A stretch of 64,000 nucleotides of DNA from positions 3,135,748-3,199,747 of the forward strand of contig OZ240229.1 in NCBI GenBank assembly GCA_965197805.1. Direction: 5' to 3'. Origin of the DNA: Dehalococcoidia bacterium (GTDB lineage Bacteria; Chloroflexota; Dehalococcoidia; Lucifugimonadales; JAAXIE01). A program made the position numbers and the translations under genes. Shown here piece by piece: positions 41,335 through 47,256 of the stretch (positions are counted from its first letter, which is position 1; every line of letters begins with the position of its first letter). The notes beneath the pieces are model-generated. The model was not told where the DNA came from, did no database searches, and saw only the letters and a program-made list of their open reading frames with translations.

Positions 41335-41571
41335 ATGGCCGACCAGGTATCGCAGACAGGTTCCAAGGTTAGCCGGAGGCGCTTTCTGGTGGTGGCCTCT
41401 CTAGGACTGGGAGCCGCTGCTGCTTTGTTCGGTCCGCTGAGAGGGTTGTTCGGGGGCGGGAACGGGCCCGTCCCTATGGCCTCAAGCGACCTCCCGGGTG
41501 AAGACTCCATCTTCCACCCACGGCGCGATGCCCGCCTCGAAGACTACGAGCGCCGCTCCCGCGGCGTCTAG
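41335..41571 (+). CDS. Small protein with twin-arginine signal-like N-terminus
   Basis: GAGGAG RBS; SRRRFLVVASLGLGAAAALFG. Confidence 0.7.
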   Translation: MADQVSQTGSKVSRRRFLVVASLGLGAAAALFGPLRGLFGGGNGPVPMASSDLPGEDSIFHPRRDARLEDYERRSRGV

Positions 41572-43313
41572 CGTCTGCCGAACTCCCGCTCCAGATTGTG
41601 CGCGCTCAGGTGCACCATTGTCGGTCTCCCGTGCGGGCAGGTGTGAGGGTTGTCGGCTTCCTCCAGCTGATTCACCAACTCTTCCATCTCGCGCTGGGTG
41701 AGGCTCTGGCCAGCCCTTACGGCGCTATGGCAAGCGATGGACGCGGTCAGCGCGTCCTCTCTCTCCGTCACCCCTCCCTGATAGGCCACCAGATCCAGGA
41801 CCTCCACCAACGCCTTCCCTGCATCAGCCCCAGCGGCGACTTCCGGCACTGCTCGCACCAAGTAGCTTCGATCACCGAAGGGTTCGACGATAAACCCGTA
41901 TTGTGTCAGCAGGTCGCCGTTGGCGCGCACCATCTCCTCCTGCGAGGCTGTCAGCTCCGCGGGTTGCGGTTGGAGGAGTGGGCGTGGCTGGCGGCCAGCG
42001 CCTGAGCGGGCCATCAGCCGGTCATACACCACCCGCTCGTGGGCAGCATGCTGGTCCAGCAGGTAGAGGCCGTCGGGACCCTCGGCCACTACGTAGGTGT
42101 CCTGAATCTGACCAACAACCCTTAACAGCGGCAGACGTGCCCGCATATCCCGCGACTTAGGTCCGCCCGGTTCAGTTTCACCTCGGGACTCGCCCGTACC
42201 TGCTCCCGTGACACCGAATCCTGTAGGACCCAAGCCAGCCGTGGGGAAAAAGGCCATGGCCCGTGCAGCATCGGCGGAGGAGGGTGTCAGAAGGTTTTCG
42301 AACCGCACCTCGGGTATAGGAGACGAGCCTACCAGCGCCTCGCGCACGGCCCTTTGCACCAAGGTGAACGCGCGACCCTCATGTGTGAACCGCACCTCCC
42401 GCTTGGCCGGATGCACGTTTACATCGACCTGAGAGGGAGGAACCTGTAGGGACAGAACTGCCAAGGGGTATCGACGCTGGGGCAGGAAGCCTTGGTAAGC
42501 CTCCTCCAAAGCAAAGGAGAGGGTGCGGCTCTGCACCAACCGCCGATTGACAAGGAAGGTCATGTAGGTGCGGTTGGCCCGGTGGAGCGACGGGGCGGAT
42601 ATGTAGCCGCTGATGGCGTATCCCTCGCTGTCAAGTTGCCAAGAGGCAGGCAGCATTCTTTCAGCCACTTGGGCCCCATACACCGCGAGCAAGGCATCGC
42701 TACCGTTGCCACTGCCGGGTGACACCAGCGTTTCTCGCCCATCCTGGCGGAGGCGGAATTGGACTTCCGGAAAAGCCAGCGCCATGCGAGAGACCAAGTC
42801 GCCGATGCGGGACGCCTCGGCTCCGACGCTTCTCAGATACTTGCGTCGCGCCGGAACGTTGTCGAACAGGTCGCGCACCGTGATGGTGGTGCCCACCGGG
42901 CCGCCTGCGGGCGTCAGAGGGCTTGTCTCGCCCCATCGGGCCTGAAGTTCGTACCCCGTGTCGGTGTCCCCGGTGTGACTGTAGAGGCTGACGCGGGATA
43001 CCGAGGCGATGCTTGGCAGGGCCTCTCCACGGAAGCCCAAGCTGGTCACCGACTCCAAGTCGTCGAAATCGCTGATCTTGCTGGTGGCATGACGCTGGAA
43101 GGCCAAGGCCATCTCGCCAGCGGCGATGCCGTGGCCGTCGTCGCTGACTCGCACCATGCCCACGCCGCCTGCCTCAACTTCTATGGTGATGTGAGAGGCA
43201 TGGGCATCGATGGCGTTTTCAACAAGTTCCTTCACCACCGACGCAGGTCTTTCCACAACCTCGCCTGCGGCGATCTTGGCTACTACATGGGGTTCCAGCA
43301 CCCTGATGGGCAT
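41568..43313 (-). CDS. mutL: DNA mismatch repair endonuclease MutL
   Basis: IAAGEVVERPASVVKELVEN, GFRGEAL, DQHAAHER, CPHGRP. Confidence 0.97.
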   Translation of the reverse strand: MPIRVLEPHVVAKIAAGEVVERPASVVKELVENAIDAHASHITIEVEAGGVGMVRVSDDGHGIAAGEMALAFQRHATSKISDFDDLESVTSLGFRGEALPSIASVSRVSLYSHTGDTDTGYELQARWGETSPLTPAGGPVGTTITVRDLFDNVPARRKYLRSVGAEASRIGDLVSRMALAFPEVQFRLRQDGRETLVSPGSGNGSDALLAVYGAQVAERMLPASWQLDSEGYAISGYISAPSLHRANRTYMTFLVNRRLVQSRTLSFALEEAYQGFLPQRRYPLAVLSLQVPPSQVDVNVHPAKREVRFTHEGRAFTLVQRAVREALVGSSPIPEVRFENLLTPSSADAARAMAFFPTAGLGPTGFGVTGAGTGESRGETEPGGPKSRDMRARLPLLRVVGQIQDTYVVAEGPDGLYLLDQHAAHERVVYDRLMARSGAGRQPRPLLQPQPAELTASQEEMVRANGDLLTQYGFIVEPFGDRSYLVRAVPEVAAGADAGKALVEVLDLVAYQGGVTEREDALTASIACHSAVRAGQSLTQREMEELVNQLEEADNPHTCPHGRPTMVHLSAHNLEREFGRR

Positions 43314-43322
43314 GGCTCCTCG

Positions 43323-43760
43323 TTAGAAGAGAGGGACTTTGGTGCCCTTGGCACGGAACTGACGGTCCTCGGACGTGCCGGTGCGGGCGAATTCGTTGAT
43401 GATTTGGTGGGCGTGCTGGATTTGCTGATCGTGGTCGTCCTTGAAGAAATAGGGACGTATCCACATTCCGCCAAAGGCGGCTGTGATCTCCGGGTAGTCG
43501 TCGATAATGAAGTCGGGCACCACGGGCACACCCAAGCCTTCCAGCCTGTTGTGGAAGTCGGACAAGGGCTTTTCGTAGACGCCGCTTATGAGGGGTTCCA
43601 GATCGAACTTACGGACAACCTCCCAGCGTTCACCCTGTCCCGACCAGATGTATACCAAGTGGCCTTCATCCACCAGCATCTGGAACACTTCCTTGGTATC
43701 CGGGCGTAAGGAATTGTCCAGCCCGAGGATGGTGTAGTCCACGTCGAAAAAGATATTCAT
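43323..43760 (-). CDS. HAD-superfamily hydrolase (cap-less type)
   Basis: IFFDVDYT, YIWS, KP, IIDD; AAGGAG RBS before ATG 43760. Confidence 0.8.
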   Translation of the reverse strand: MNIFFDVDYTILGLDNSLRPDTKEVFQMLVDEGHLVYIWSGQGERWEVVRKFDLEPLISGVYEKPLSDFHNRLEGLGVPVVPDFIIDDYPEITAAFGGMWIRPYFFKDDHDQQIQHAHQIINEFARTGTSEDRQFRAKGTKVPLF

Positions 43761-43857
43761 ACAGCCAGTGCGCTCCTTGTACCAAGTCGTGCCAGCAGGC
43801 AAGACGGCCCTTGGCAGAACGGGATTTAGCGGGACGGATTAAACTGGGCCTCATTTT

Positions 43858-44178
43858 CTAGTGGGCATGGTCGGCAGACAGAGCAGCTTGAGCAGCCATA
43901 CTGAAGGGGCCAGCGCCCAGCACCTGGTGCGCTTCCCAATCCAGCATCTCGTACTTGCGTACGCCCTCAGCGTGGAAGGGGTCCTCATCGGCGATCGCCA
44001 TCGCTTTCTGTCGCGAGCCAGCCTTGATTACGATGATGCCCACGCTGCGGTCCGGCGTGGGGCCGGAAAAGAGGATATTCCCCGCGGTGTGCTGCTTGTT
44101 CTGATAGGCCAGATGAGCGTCCAAGTAGGGCATGCCGTCCTTTTCGCCGGTGGGCCTACTCAACACCAGATACCACAT
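43858..44178 (-). CDS. YciI family protein
   Basis: HLAY, FSGP, EDPF motifs; AAGGAG RBS. Confidence 0.88.
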   Translation of the reverse strand: MWYLVLSRPTGEKDGMPYLDAHLAYQNKQHTAGNILFSGPTPDRSVGIIVIKAGSRQKAMAIADEDPFHAEGVRKYEMLDWEAHQVLGAGPFSMAAQAALSADHAH

Positions 44179-44235
44179 ATGCTTGCTCCTTCGTTACGTC
44201 CGCAGATGACGGGAATAGCCTACGCCCTGACTGGA

Positions 44236-44586
44236 CTAGCCCAAGGCTTGCTGCAAGTCGGCCTCGCGGGAACCCACCACCAGCTTGTCGCCCACCTTGG
44301 TAAGAGGGCGGCGGATGAGGCGGGGCTCCTCCAGCATGAGGCGCACCATCTCGTCCTCCGGGAGGTCGGCGGGACTAACACCCAGCTTCTTGGCACTCGG
44401 GCTACGTGAGGCGAAGATATCGACGATAGGCCGGTCACCCACCAACTCTCGCAGCTCAGCCTCGGTGAAGCGGTCTTTGAAGAAGTCTCTGTCCTGGATT
44501 TCAGCGCCCCCCTGCGAGAGAAACTCTCTCGCCTTGCGGCAGCTGGTTCAACGGGGCCAAGTATAGTAAGTCACTTGCAGGGCCAT
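44236..44586 (-). CDS. ArsC/Spx/YffB-family thioredoxin-fold protein, predicted selenoprotein (UxxC)
   Basis: AAGGAGG RBS, ATG 44586: MALQVTYYTWPR-TGA(44550-44548)-TSCRKAREFL...RDFFKD...PRLIRRPL...VVG; SECIS-like hairpin just downstream of the UGA. Confidence 0.85.
44502..44545 (-). promoter_or_regulatory. Putative bacterial SECIS element
   Basis: GCGAGAGA-GUU-UCUCUCGC 8-bp stem, loop G 23 nt after UGA; lower stem CAGC(U)GCC/GGCGCUG. Confidence 0.7.
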
Positions 44587-44637
44587 GGAATACCCTCCTT
44601 GCACGACATGGGGAGAGAGGTTCGAGGTCGTCGCCTA

Positions 44638-47256
44638 TTATGCCATATCCTGGGCCAGACCTTGGGCGGCCTGCTGCAGGGCATACAGCTTATTCAATGC
44701 CTCCAGTGGGGTCATGCTGGACAAGTCCATGTCCAGCAGCTCTTGCGAAAAGTCGGCTGTAAACACGCTGGACATCAGGGAAAGCTGTTCCCCTTGTGAC
44801 TTGGTGGAGCGGCGCTTACGTCCGACCTGCTTGGGGCTGGTTTGATTGAGTCCCTGTCCGCTAGGCTGATGCGACTCCAGTTCGGTCAGTATCTCCCAAG
44901 CCCGGTTGGTCACCGCGGGAGGAAGTCCTGCCAAGCGCGCCACCTGTACCCCGTAGCTGCGGTCAGCGCTGCCCGGCAGAATGCGGTGGAGGAAGACCAC
45001 GCGGCCATCCTCCTCGGAGACGGCCACGCAGTGATTACGAACGCCAGGCAGCGACGAGGCCAACTGAGTAAGCTCGTGGTAGTGGGTGGCGAACAGGGAG
45101 CGGCACCCCAGACGGGGATGACTGTGCAAGTACTCCGTCACAGCCCGGGCGATGGACATGCCGTCGTAGGTGCTGGTGCCTCGCCCGATCTCGTCCAGCA
45201 CTACCAGAGACCGTGGCGTGGCTTGGTTGAGGATAGCCGCCGTCTCCACCATCTCTACCATGAAAGTGGACTGTCCTGTGGCGAGGTCGTCCTGTAGACC
45301 AACACGGGTGAATATGCGATCGACCAAGCCGATAGTGGCGGAGGAGGCAGGCACGTAGCTGCCGATCTGGGCCATGAGGGTGATGATGGCCACATGCCGG
45401 ATGTAGGTGGACTTGCCTGACATGTTGGGACCGGTGAGGAGCACAAGACGCTGGTCGCCGGTGTCGAGATGGGTGTCATTGGGAACGTATGTACCCGTTG
45501 GGACGACACGCTCCACCACAGGATGGCGCCCGTCCTTGATTTCGATGCGCTGTTCTTCAGTCAGCTCTGGACGCACGTAGCCGTGTCGGGCTGCAATCTC
45601 AGCTAGGGATGCGCAGACGTCCAAGTGGGCCACTGCTGATGCCAAGGCGGTCAGGGACACGCCTGCGGCCGCCACTTGCGCGCAAAGCTGATGGTAAAGC
45701 TCTTTCTCCAGCTCCGCCGCTTCTTCCCGTGCGTTCAGCACCAGCGATTCGTATTCTTTGAGTTCGGGAGTGATGTACCGCTCGGCCCCTACCAGCGTCT
45801 GGCGTCGCTGGTAGCTCTCCGGCACCTGTCCAGTATGGGAGTTGCTGACCTCTATGTAGTACCCAAAGACGCGGTTGTAACCGACCTTGAGGTTGCGTAT
45901 TCCGGTGCTCTCCCGCTCGTGGGACTCCACTCGGGCAATATACTGGCGCGCATCGCTGGCGGCAGAGCGGGCTTGGTCCAGCCTCTCTGAGAGTCCTACC
46001 CGCACGATCCCTCCATCGCCCACCAAGCCGCTGGGCTCCGTCTCGATGGCCCGCTCGATGAGAGATGCCACATCAGAGCAAGGATGGAACCCTGCCGGAA
46101 GCCAGTCAGGTGGTCCTCCGGGAGACTCCTGAACAAGCTGGACGAGTTCGGCAGCGGCGTACAGGCTCGTCTTGAGGCCCACCAGCTCACGGGGCTGGGC
46201 GTTGCCCAAGCGTATCCGCGTCAACACCCGCTCCATGTCTATGATGCGCGACATGGAGGAACGGGTCTTATCTCGCAGCAACATGTCGTCACAGAACCAG
46301 CCCACTGCATCCTGCCTCCGGACCAATTGTGGCAGGTCAAGGAGGGGCTGGCTGAGCCAGCGACGGAACAGACGCGCTCCCATGGGGGTGCGAGTCACAT
46401 CCAAGGAACTCAGCAACGACAGGCCTCGGTCGCCCCAACGACCTCCCTCGAAGATTTCCAGGTTGCGCCGCGTCTGCTGGTCCAGCGTCATGAAGGTGGC
46501 AGTGGAGTAGCAGTTGAGCCCATTCAGCTCTTTGACAGCCCCCTTCTGGGTCTCGGTCAAGTATTCGATGATGGCTCCGGCGGCCCCGGTGGCTAGCGGC
46601 AGACCCTCACATCCGAAAGCCTCCAAGCTGACCACGCCAAAGTGGTCCAGCAGGGTGCGCCGCGCCACGGCGTGGCTAAAGCTGGAGGGCGCGAGCGGGG
46701 TGGCCACCGCGGCTCCGGGCAATTGCGCGGAGTCCTGGTCGCGGGGGACTACAACCTCAGCCGGGGAGATGCGTTCCAGTTCGAAAGGAAGGGCGTCCAG
46801 GGGCAGTTGAGTGGCGGCGAACTCGCCAGTGGAAACGTCGACATAGGCCAGTCCAGCGCTATCGCCAGATATGGTGAGGGCAGCCAGGTAGTTGTTAGAG
46901 GTTTGGTCCAGCAGGGATGATTCCACCACCGTGCCGGGCGTGACCACTCGCACCACGTCCCGGTCCACCAGTCCGCGAGATGCAGCCGGGTCGGACAACT
47001 GCTCGCAGATGGCCACTTTGTAGCCTGCCTTGATGAGCTTACCCAAGTAGCTCTCCAAGGCATGGGCTGGGATTCCGGCCATGGGAATCTTGTTGTCCTT
47101 GCCCATGCTCCGGGAAGTGAGGACGATGTCCAAGACCTCCGACGCGATATGGGAGTCTTCGTCGAAGGTCTCGTAGAAGTCGCCCAGCCGGAACAGCAGC
47201 AGGGTGTCGGGATAGCGTTGTTTGATCTTCAGGTACTGACGGCGTATGGGGGTCAA
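44638..47256 (-). CDS. mutS: DNA mismatch repair protein MutS
   Basis: TP..QY..IK, GDFYE, TGPNMSGKSTY, STFMVEM, DEIGRGTST. Confidence 0.98.
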   Translation of the reverse strand: MTPIRRQYLKIKQRYPDTLLLFRLGDFYETFDEDSHIASEVLDIVLTSRSMGKDNKIPMAGIPAHALESYLGKLIKAGYKVAICEQLSDPAASRGLVDRDVVRVVTPGTVVESSLLDQTSNNYLAALTISGDSAGLAYVDVSTGEFAATQLPLDALPFELERISPAEVVVPRDQDSAQLPGAAVATPLAPSSFSHAVARRTLLDHFGVVSLEAFGCEGLPLATGAAGAIIEYLTETQKGAVKELNGLNCYSTATFMTLDQQTRRNLEIFEGGRWGDRGLSLLSSLDVTRTPMGARLFRRWLSQPLLDLPQLVRRQDAVGWFCDDMLLRDKTRSSMSRIIDMERVLTRIRLGNAQPRELVGLKTSLYAAAELVQLVQESPGGPPDWLPAGFHPCSDVASLIERAIETEPSGLVGDGGIVRVGLSERLDQARSAASDARQYIARVESHERESTGIRNLKVGYNRVFGYYIEVSNSHTGQVPESYQRRQTLVGAERYITPELKEYESLVLNAREEAAELEKELYHQLCAQVAAAGVSLTALASAVAHLDVCASLAEIAARHGYVRPELTEEQRIEIKDGRHPVVERVVPTGTYVPNDTHLDTGDQRLVLLTGPNMSGKSTYIRHVAIITLMAQIGSYVPASSATIGLVDRIFTRVGLQDDLATGQSTFMVEMVETAAILNQATPRSLVVLDEIGRGTSTYDGMSIARAVTEYLHSHPRLGCRSLFATHYHELTQLASSLPGVRNHCVAVSEEDGRVVFLHRILPGSADRSYGVQVARLAGLPPAVTNRAWEILTELESHQPSGQGLNQTSPKQVGRKRRSTKSQGEQLSLMSSVFTADFSQELLDMDLSSMTPLEALNKLYALQQAAQGLAQDMA

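What the first reader, a model, noticed from the sequence alone, without database searches (positions are those of the whole stretch)
44236..44600. Hidden selenoprotein: ArsC/Spx-family UxxC gene with a SECIS-like hairpin
Seen: AAGGAGG RBS, ATG at 44586, then MALQVTYYTWPR-TGA-TSCRKAREFL, in frame with the 69-aa ORF-track fragment (PRLIRRPL..VVG). The UGA sits exactly where the first Cys of the ArsC/Spx CxxC..KA motif belongs. An 8-bp perfect stem with a GUU loop lies 23 nt downstream, with a further lower stem. Known: bacterial SECIS elements lie just 3' of the UGA with a G early in the apical loop, and ArsC-like Sec proteins are known mainly from environmental sequences. Inference: a 116-aa selenoprotein that standard gene callers truncate or call a pseudogene.
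Basis: partly seen in the sequence, partly recalled or inferred. Interest (0 to 1): 0.85.

Follow-up and report, generated by a model that had tools for sequence, protein, structure and literature searches.

The report
Selenocysteine gene of ArsC/Spx family
This is a real but ordinary hidden selenoprotein gene: a small Spx-like, thioredoxin-fold protein whose active-site cysteine is replaced by selenocysteine, which gene callers cut short at the UGA codon.

Summary
The observation and the reading both hold. A 116-codon frame (44236-44586, minus strand) has an RBS and ATG. Its codon 13 is an in-frame TGA, in the motif U-x-x-C of an ArsC/Spx-family protein (Pfam PF03960, 63 bits).

- **Machinery:** the genome has selA, selB, selD (itself with Sec) and tRNA-Sec.
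- **Conservation:** 38 of 61 related genomes have a homologue, and 37 of those carry one in-frame TGA. In 29 of 30 fetched loci it sits at the same codon.
- **The exception:** the one Cys-form genome lacks selA, selB and tRNA-Sec.
- **SECIS:** an 8-bp hairpin with a G-U loop starts 15 nt after the UGA. Six of its 8 pairs show compensatory changes. It is missing in 21 Cys-form homologues.
- **Not an error:** independent DNA contigs and RNA-library contigs carry the same TGA.

The closest structures are Bacillus Spx (TM 0.84-0.85), but Spx's RNA-polymerase-binding features are missing. A selenol/thiol oxidoreductase is therefore the most likely function; this is inferred, not shown.

ArsC-like UxxC selenoproteins have been listed since 2006-2008, and Dehalococcoidia are known to be rich in selenoproteins. 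This is a new member of a known kind. Its main value is correcting annotation.

The parts
44594..44600 (-). Shine-Dalgarno AAGGAGG, 7 nt before the ATG
   Evidence: GGAGG-type sites sit in the same place in the four same-genus loci.
44236..44586 (-). Coding sequence of the 116-aa ArsC/Spx-family selenoprotein: ATG 44584-44586, TAG stop 44236-44238
   Evidence: Pfam PF03960 63.4 bits. AF2 model pLDDT 83.9. Best fold matches are Spx, TM 0.84-0.85.
44548..44550 (-). In-frame TGA, codon 13, read as selenocysteine (U of UxxC)
   Evidence: The same codon is TGA in 29 of 30 fetched loci. It is unchanged in contigs of 4 other runs.
44539..44541 (-). TGC, Cys16, the likely resolving cysteine of UxxC
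   Evidence: Invariant column in alignment A2.
44514..44532 (-). SECIS upper stem-loop: 8-bp stem with GUU loop. The stem starts 15 nt after the UGA and the loop 23 nt after.
   Evidence: 93.1% of 232 cells are paired and 6 of 8 pairs have compensatory changes. The first loop base G is invariant. The hairpin is absent in Cys forms.
44502..44545 (-). Span of a possible lower stem (arms 44538-44545 and 44502-44508) enclosing the upper stem-loop; weakly supported
   Evidence: It forms in the fold of this sequence. Across 29 sequences it is 65.5% paired, and it is not in the RNAalifold consensus.
44638..47256 (-). Context only: mutS, ending 51 nt upstream of the ATG
   Evidence: No promoter-like site was found in the gap.
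43858..44178 (-). Context only: YCII-domain gene, 57 nt downstream on the same strand

Best explanation
This is a genuine selenoprotein gene. SelB carrying Sec-tRNA(Sec) recognises the hairpin that starts 15 nt after UGA codon 13 and inserts selenocysteine. The result is a 116-aa protein of the ArsC/Spx family with a thioredoxin-like fold and the motif U13-x-x-C16 at the start of helix 1.

**Shown here:**
- the in-frame TGA and its conservation at one codon across an order;
- its exchange with Cys in homologues;
- a covarying hairpin found only in the TGA forms;
- the Sec machinery in the genome;
- family and fold.

**Inferred (about 0.65):** the protein cycles between a selenol/thiol form and a selenenylsulfide. 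In that way it would act as a small redox enzyme that reduces disulfides or another oxidised substrate. Its substrate and its reductant are unknown.
For: **Gene structure.** RBS, ATG, TGA at codon 13 and an open frame to TAG. Pfam ArsC scores 63.4 bits against a cut-off of 24.

**Machinery in the own genome (one 3.68-Mb contig).**
- selB: 348.2 bits over positions 2-580 of 581.
- selA: 544.3 bits.
- selD: 390.6 bits with one in-frame TGA. Read through, it gives ..SHCAGUAAKI...
- tRNA-Sec: 70.3 bits, anticodon TCA.

**Conservation.**
- 61 genomes were searched and 38 have a homologue. Of those, 37 have exactly one TGA inside the match.
- In the 30 loci fetched, 29 read U-x-x-C at the same aligned codon and one reads C-x-x-C.
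- The 12 codons before the TGA are conserved in frame; Y8 and W10 are nearly invariant.
- 10 of the 30 genes end in TGA as their true stop. So TGA is not reassigned genome-wide.

**SECIS.**
- Among 29 TGA forms, 93.1% of 232 cells in the 8-bp stem are paired. Slid registers give 35-63%.
- 6 of 8 pairs show compensatory changes, and 0 of 500 shuffles reach the score.
- The first loop base G is invariant and the second is T in 28 of 29.
- Control: in the same register, the 29 TGA forms average 7.4 of 8 pairs and the 21 Cys forms average 2.4 of 8.

**Natural experiment.**
- G049, the one Cys-form genome in the order (97% complete), has no selA, selB or tRNA-Sec above cut-off.
- 34 of the 37 TGA-form genomes have selA above cut-off.
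- The other three (G036, G045, G060) have selB at 318-347 bits and tRNA-Sec at 66-73 bits.

**Reads.** The TGA is unchanged in DNA contigs of two other studies. It is also unchanged in two contigs from RNA libraries that span it, one with 0 differences over 44137-44623.

**Fold.** AF2 gives pLDDT 83.9, with strand 4-9 followed by helix 14-25, so U13 sits at the helix N-terminus.
Against: - No experiment shows selenium in this protein.
- Folded alone, the hairpin region is no more stable than shuffles (z = -0.67).
- No Rfam family matches it.
- selA was not found in 3 of the 37 TGA-form genomes, including one that is 96% complete.
- Two TGA forms (L045, L047) have only 4 of 8 pairs in the common register. 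By my reading of their sequences they need a shifted stem with a bulge.
- The enzymatic function is inferred only from fold and motif. The nearest solved relatives are a transcription regulator, not an enzyme.
- Gene neighbourhood gives no consistent functional hint.
Confidence: 0.88

Rival explanations
1. It is a Spx-like redox-sensing regulator. The U-x-x-C pair would be a selenium-based switch that controls binding to the RNA polymerase alpha C-terminal domain and so controls transcription. It would not be an enzyme.
For: The best sequence and fold matches among solved structures are B. subtilis Spx: E 7e-14, and TM 0.84-0.85 at 32% identity. The best NCBIfam hit is Spx/MgsR TIGR01617. The motif around the redox pair is nearly the same as in Spx (alignment). 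The R-P motif is invariant.
Against: - TIGR01617 scores 65.9, below its cut-off of 75.05. The Spx models NF002459, NF009885 and NF009210 fall far below theirs.
- The residue aligned to Spx G52, essential for alpha-CTD binding (PMC8501982 and PMC2801614, passages), is Pro53 here. By my reading of the A2 rows, that column varies across the family.
- The protein ends at residue 116. It therefore lacks the helix formed by Spx residues 119-131, which contacts sigma-A (PMC8501982, passages).
- The own alpha-CTD reads ..PRTLNCLKR... Spaced like R261, N264, K267 and R268 of the paper, this puts Leu where Y263 stands. [quoted passage not shown]
Confidence: 0.1
2. It is a glutaredoxin-coupled arsenate reductase of the ArsC type, using Sec instead of the catalytic Cys.
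For: It belongs to Pfam ArsC. Sec13 falls where Cys12 of E. coli ArsC aligns: query 4-102 matches chain 3-105. The literature names related selenoproteins 'arsenate reductase'.
Against: The equivalog model TIGR00014 scores 40.9 against a cut-off of 106.05, and NF007456 scores 23.8 against 242. E. coli ArsC is a poorer fold match than Spx, TM 0.76 at 18-21% identity. Of the arginines expected near the active site, only R93 is invariant. By my reading of the A2 rows, the position near ArsC R60 varies among R, K, N and S. No ars genes lie next to it.
Confidence: 0.07
3. The TGA is a plain stop. The locus would be a pseudogene, or would encode only a shorter product that starts after the TGA. Alternatively the TGA is an assembly error.
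For: Public gene calls treat it this way: the own product on record is 69 aa, and most relatives are 68-105 aa. Single-sequence folding is not significant.
Against: - The TGA is kept at one codon in 29 of 30 loci that share 45-92% protein identity, with a conserved frame on both sides.
- The hairpin covaries.
- The only Cys form in the order occurs in the genome without Sec machinery.
- The same TGA is present in contigs of other studies.
- The first in-frame start after the TGA here is codon 48. Starting there would remove strand 1, helix 1 and strand 2 of the fold.
Confidence: 0.02

Closest known systems
'Arsenate reductase 2' (cd03032, UxxC) and other ArsC-like selenoproteins of Zhang and Gladyshev (GOS 2008, PMC2398784; bacteria 2006, PMC1794560; 2022 review, PMC9312934; BSepDB 2026, PMC13326102)
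   Same: An ArsC-family thioredoxin-fold protein with Sec as the first residue of UxxC, with Cys-containing homologues, found mainly in environmental sequence. The GOS table lists 42 Sec and 238 Cys sequences for this family. The review lists an 'arsenate reductase-like protein, COG1393, UxxC'.
   Different: I could not compare sequences directly. So it is not shown that this Dehalococcoidia clade is the same subfamily. That cd03032 is the Spx subfamily of ArsC is recalled, not taken from a call.
NCBIfam NF041106, 'ArsC family (seleno)protein'
   Same: The same Pfam family, and the same idea: a model that allows Sec at the active site.
   Different: The score is 34.3 bits against a cut-off of 85. 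This protein is therefore outside that subfamily, and that model would not rescue it during annotation.
Spx of Bacillus subtilis (PDB 1z3e, 3gfk, 7f75)
   Same: Closest solved structure and sequence. The redox pair sits at the same place, and the R-P motif is shared.
   Different: Sec replaces Cys10. The G52 equivalent is missing, as is the C-terminal helix. The cognate alpha-CTD has no Tyr at position 263. The family cut-offs are not reached.
E. coli R773 ArsC arsenate reductase (PDB 1i9d)
   Same: Same fold, with the nucleophile at the same position.
   Different: 18-21% identity and TM 0.76. The equivalog model is far below its cut-off. The arginines around the site are not all conserved.

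Membership tests
Bacterial SelB/SECIS-dependent selenoprotein gene | In-frame UGA at a position where homologues have Cys | tested here: met
   U-x-x-C in 29 of 30 loci and C-x-x-C in L035. 21 Cys forms in other Dehalococcoidia. Full-length CxxC proteins in the database.
Bacterial SelB/SECIS-dependent selenoprotein gene | Stem-loop just 3' of the UGA with a G early in the apical loop | tested here: met
   An 8-bp stem 15 nt after the UGA. The first loop base G is invariant in 29 of 29. The conserved G of the apical loop is mentioned in PMC1794560. The numeric limits of the bSECISearch model are recalled only.
Bacterial SelB/SECIS-dependent selenoprotein gene | Hairpin kept by compensatory change and tied to the UGA | tested here: met
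   6 of 8 pairs are compensatory and 0 of 500 shuffles reach the score. Mean 7.4 of 8 pairs in TGA forms against 2.4 of 8 in Cys forms.
Bacterial SelB/SECIS-dependent selenoprotein gene | selA, selB, selC and selD in the genome | tested here: met
   All are over their curated cut-offs.
Bacterial SelB/SECIS-dependent selenoprotein gene | Selenium actually incorporated into the protein | not testable with these tools
   Needs 75Se labelling or mass spectrometry.
ArsC family (Pfam PF03960) | Score over the gathering cut-off, and the fold | tested here: met
   63.4 bits against 24. The Foldseek top 26 matches are all ArsC/Spx-family chains.
Spx/MgsR regulators (TIGR01617, NF002459) | Score over the curated cut-off | tested here: not met
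   65.9 against 75.05, and 59.1 against 123.
Spx/MgsR regulators (TIGR01617, NF002459) | CXXC redox switch and RPI motif | tested here: met
   UxxC, and an invariant R93-P94 followed by L, I, M or V. Both features are shared by the wider ArsC family, so they discriminate little.
Spx/MgsR regulators (TIGR01617, NF002459) | G52 for alpha-CTD contact, the C-terminal helix 119-131, and Y263 in the cognate alpha-CTD | tested here: not met
   Pro53 aligns to G52, and by my reading of the A2 rows that column varies. The protein ends at 116. The own alpha-CTD has Leu at the Y263 place (with residue spacing from PMC8501982).
Glutaredoxin-dependent arsenate reductase ArsC (TIGR00014) | Score over the equivalog cut-off | tested here: not met
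   40.9 against 106.05.
Glutaredoxin-dependent arsenate reductase ArsC (TIGR00014) | Arginine triad around the catalytic Cys12 | tested here: inconclusive
   Only R93 is invariant. By my reading of the A2 rows, the position near R60 varies. No residue-level alignment to ArsC was printed. The triad numbering is recalled; PDB titles name the C12 and R60 mutants.
NCBIfam NF041106 ArsC family (seleno)protein | Score over the curated cut-off | tested here: not met
   34.3 against 85.

The most novel reading that the evidence does not exclude
The protein is not an enzyme but a selenium-based redox switch of the Spx type. It would be a small regulator that senses oxidants through a selenenylsulfide and acts on the transcription machinery, or on another partner, in Dehalococcoidia. 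In this genus it sits inside a mutS-mutL gene cluster, so it could tie oxidative stress to DNA repair. Nearly all known selenoproteins are enzymes (recalled, not from a call), so a Sec-containing regulator would be a new use of selenocysteine.
Probability: 0.08. Interest if true: 0.75.

Novelty: new member of a known kind. Interest (0 to 1): 0.3.

Why it matters
The main value is correct annotation. In the public protein collection this gene and most of its relatives are recorded as N-terminally cut fragments of 68-105 aa without the active site. The selenoprotein-aware NCBI model for ArsC-like proteins does not reach this clade.

The family is a clean comparative example:
- one codon held as UGA across an order;
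- a covarying SECIS inside conserved coding sequence;
- one lineage that lost the Sec machinery and switched to Cys.

It also supplies a Spx-like scaffold with Sec at the sensing position. That could be used to ask what selenium adds to a CxxC redox pair. None of this would surprise a selenoprotein specialist.

Tried and rejected
- **Rfam.** An E-value search of 44200-44900 gave no SECIS and no tRNA match, only three chance-level hits. Few bacterial SECIS models exist there, so this says nothing either way.
- **Single-sequence folding.** z = -0.67, not informative in this GC-rich coding sequence.
- **Lower stem.** 65.5% paired and absent from the RNAalifold consensus. I do not count it as a conserved part.
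- **Gene neighbourhood.** The mutS or mutL neighbours recur only in the four same-genus loci and, wholly or partly, in L029, L033, L039 and L032. The flanks of those loci were only 1.5 kb, so absence is weak evidence.
- **All-against-all ORF clustering.** It was dominated by antisense ORFs and by the close synteny of the Cys-form clade. It gave no functional hint.
- **Promoter and terminator scan, 43200-44800.** No promoter-like site. One terminator-like site, inside the 159-aa ORF. Nothing usable.
- **Crude scan of the window for other redox-motif TGA frames.** It gave 46 motif matches. By eye only this gene looks like a real protein, and it has the most stable downstream fold (-22.7 kcal/mol). 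None of the others was followed up.
- **Reads.** Parts of the stretch without RNA-library contigs (for X9, beyond 44613) are no evidence of anything. Contigs cannot show transcript ends or levels. DNA carried over into an RNA library is not excluded.
- **Complex prediction.** The complex prediction test of binding to the alpha-CTD could not be run (see below), so it gives no verdict.
- **Supplementary files.** The GOS and BSepDB supplements or databases may already list this very gene or clade, which bears on novelty.
- **Rows dropped.** L022, nearly identical to L021, was left out of A2 (29 of 30 loci used). L035 (Cys) was left out of A1. L069, L071 and L072 were not picked up by my pattern and are missing from that count and from the tree (50 of 53 loci used). 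Eight matching genomes had no locus fetched, so only their '1 TGA' tally is known.

Full report
**What is there.**
On the minus strand, AAGGAGG (44594-44600) lies 7 nt before an ATG (44584-44586). The frame runs 12 codons to a TGA (44548-44550). It then continues open for 103 more codons to a TAG at 44236-44238. Reading TGA as U gives a 116-aa protein, MALQVTYYTWPRUTSCRKAREFL.... A table-11 reading leaves only a 69-aa ORF starting at a TTG at codon 48. That fragment is the form on record in the public protein collection (P0002). One detail differs: the 8-bp stem starts 15 nt after the UGA, and it is the loop that starts 23 nt after.

**Family and fold.**
The protein matches Pfam ArsC (PF03960) at 63.4 bits against a cut-off of 24. 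In NCBIfam the best hit is Spx/MgsR TIGR01617, at 65.9 bits against a cut-off of 75.05. The arsenate-reductase equivalog TIGR00014 scores 40.9 against 106.05. The 'ArsC family (seleno)protein' model NF041106 scores 34.3 against 85. So it reaches no curated subfamily. An AlphaFold2 model built on 29 family sequences has mean pLDDT 83.9. In it, strand 4-9 is followed by helix 14-25, which puts U13 and C16 at the helix N-terminus, the usual place of a CxxC redox pair. Foldseek against the PDB ranks B. subtilis Spx first (3gfk and 1z3e, TM 0.84-0.85, 32% identity). Uncharacterised ArsC-family proteins and YffB come next, and E. coli ArsC follows at TM 0.76. A sequence search of the PDB agrees: Spx at E 7e-14.

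**Sec machinery.**
The window's genome is one contig of 3.68 Mb, 97% complete. It encodes:
- selB, 348.2 bits over positions 2-580 of 581;
- selA, 544.3 bits;
- selD, 390.6 bits;
- a tRNA-Sec, 70.3 bits, which ARAGORN calls tRNA-SeC with anticodon TCA.

selD itself holds an in-frame TGA. Read through, it gives ..SHCAGUAAKI.. near the N-terminus. The organism therefore already uses Sec elsewhere.

**Conservation of the TGA.**
The protein was searched in the own genome and 60 relatives: 4 of the same genus and 56 of other families in the same order. 38 of the 61 have a homologue at E <= 0.001, and 37 of those 38 have exactly one TGA inside the match. Loci were fetched for 30 of the 38. In 29 of them the TGA is at the same aligned codon and is followed by x-x-C. 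The thirtieth (L035, genome G049) reads C-T-T-C. Protein identity to the window's copy ranges from 45% to 92%. The residues before the TGA are conserved in frame; Y8 and W10 are nearly invariant. Ten of the 30 genes end in TGA as their real stop. TGA is therefore read two ways within one gene, which is the signature of context-dependent recoding and not of a changed genetic code.

**The hairpin.**
In an ungapped alignment of the 29 TGA forms (A1), RNAalifold predicts one helix: columns 31-38 paired with 42-49.
- 93.1% of 232 cells form standard pairs. When the 3' arm is slid by 1-3 columns the figure is 35-63%.
- 6 of 8 pairs show changes on both sides that keep the pair.
- None of 500 column shuffles reaches the observed pairing or covariation score.
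- The first loop base G is invariant, and the second is T in 28 of 29.

The stem lies inside the codons for the conserved helix 1. Protein constraint alone might therefore be suspected. The control argues against that. In 21 Cys-form homologues with much the same helix, the same register averages 2.4 of 8 pairs (maximum 6). The 29 TGA forms average 7.4 of 8 (minimum 4). The two TGA forms with only 4 pairs (L045, L047) seem, from my reading of their sequences, to form a shifted stem with one bulged base; this was not tested formally. Folded alone, the region is not more stable than shuffles (z = -0.67). The evidence for the SECIS is thus comparative, not thermodynamic. No Rfam family matches it.

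**A natural experiment.**
selA is over its cut-off in 51 of the 61 genomes, and in 34 of the 37 TGA-form genomes. The three exceptions are G036, G045 and G060, at 81%, 96% and 89% completeness. All three have selB (318-347 bits) and tRNA-Sec (66-73 bits), so selA is probably just unassembled or missed. G049 is the single genome of the order with Cys at this codon and is 97% complete. It has no selA, selB or tRNA-Sec above cut-off.

On a maximum-likelihood tree of 50 family members, the TGA forms make one clade of 31 rows (support 100/99). L035 and one further Cys form, L050, lie inside it. A separate clade holds 19 Cys forms from other Dehalococcoidia, including a SAR202 bin. The root is a midpoint only and inner branches are weak. 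The direction of change is therefore likely Sec to Cys in those two rows, but this is not proven.

**Not an assembly artefact.**
Sixteen public runs hold this stretch or a part of it. I laid four of them on 43900-44900. No difference is listed at 44548-44550.
- DNA contigs from two other studies span the codon: X3 record 11 (44008-44837) and X12 record 4 (44324-44900, with 15 other differences elsewhere).
- Contigs of two metatranscriptome libraries labelled sponge metagenome also span it: X5 record 19 (44137-44623, 0 differences) and X9 record 24 (44393-44595).

The RNA-library contigs fit transcription, but contigs cannot prove it.

**Taxon.**
The named homologues found by pattern search are nearly all from Dehalococcoidia (Chloroflexota), with two from Dormibacteraeota. 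One named Dehalococcoidia Cys form lies inside the TGA clade. The window's organism is thus most likely a member of the Dehalococcoidia. This is inferred from neighbours, not from its own markers.

**Function.**
What is shown is a thioredoxin-like fold with a Sec-x-x-Cys pair. The most likely mechanism (about 0.65) is a selenol/thiol oxidoreductase that cycles through a selenenylsulfide, as in other UxxC selenoproteins.

The Spx-like regulator reading is the main rival, because Spx is the nearest solved relative. However, the features that the Spx literature treats as essential are missing (PMC8501982 and PMC2801614, passages read):
- The residue aligned to G52 is Pro53, and by my reading of the A2 rows that column is variable.
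- The protein stops before the helix of Spx residues 119-131 that contacts sigma-A.
- The organism's own alpha-CTD reads ..PRTLNCLKR.., which puts Leu at the place of Y263.
- The family cut-offs are not met.

The arsenate-reductase reading fails its equivalog cut-off. Only one of the expected arginines is conserved.

Gene context is not consistent. In this genus the gene lies between mutS and a YCII-domain gene. An unassigned 159-aa ORF and mutL follow, all on one strand, with no promoter-like site in the 51-nt gap after mutS. That arrangement recurs in only a few other families.

**Comparison with what is known.**
- PMC1794560 (tables seen as passages) lists ArsC-like selenoproteins in Desulfotalea and Desulfuromonas.
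- PMC9312934 (table passage) lists an 'arsenate reductase-like protein, COG1393, UxxC'.
- PMC13326102 (passages) describes a 2026 database of bacterial selenoproteins. In it two Dehalococcoidia genomes carry 46 and 49 selenoproteins, and an arsenate reductase-like family is used as the worked example.

A search for Spx together with selenocysteine, UxxC and ArsC returned six papers. Three of them are the selenoprotein papers above, and in the search listing none of those three uses the word Spx. I did not open the other three papers. So I found no statement that links these selenoproteins to Spx, within the limits of that one search.

**Verdict.**
It is a new, or perhaps already catalogued, member of the ArsC-like UxxC selenoproteins. 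The supporting comparative evidence is unusually clean. Interest is 0.3.

Noticed in passing
window 44797-44889 (+): ARAGORN calls a 93-nt tRNA-Pro (TGG) on the strand opposite mutS. The Rfam E-value search of 44200-44900 finds no tRNA there, so it is probably a false call.
   Followed up: partly
L008 (own genome, G000:C1:1229919-1230839, minus strand): selD of this genome has an in-frame TGA. Read through, it gives ..SHCAGUAAKI.., so SelD is itself a selenoprotein here.
   Followed up: partly
window 44512-44559: In all four runs laid, extra contigs match only this 48-nt piece (UGA plus SECIS core) with 4-5 differences, then run on into unlike sequence. Some have high depth, for example 51.8 in X12. 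Other members of the same communities seem to share this core at the nucleotide level more closely than the rest of the gene.
   Followed up: no
window 41568-47256 (-): A same-strand cluster: mutS, the selenoprotein gene, a YCII-domain gene, a 159-aa ORF and mutL. It is kept in the four same-genus genomes, and in part in L029, L032, L033 and L039.
   Followed up: partly
window 43323-43802 (-): A 159-aa ORF with no Pfam match. It is nevertheless conserved at 48-64% identity in L029, L032, L033 and L039, next to mutL in three of them. It is a conserved protein of unknown family.
   Followed up: no
genome G049 (locus L035): This is the only relative with Cys at the Sec codon. It also has no selA, selB or tRNA-Sec above cut-off, at 97% completeness. 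It looks like a lineage that lost Sec decoding and converted this gene to Cys.
   Followed up: yes
L073 730-1971 (+), own genome: rpoA is 413 aa long, with a highly acidic tail of about 90 residues after the alpha-CTD. By my recollection that is unusually long for a bacterial alpha subunit.
   Followed up: no
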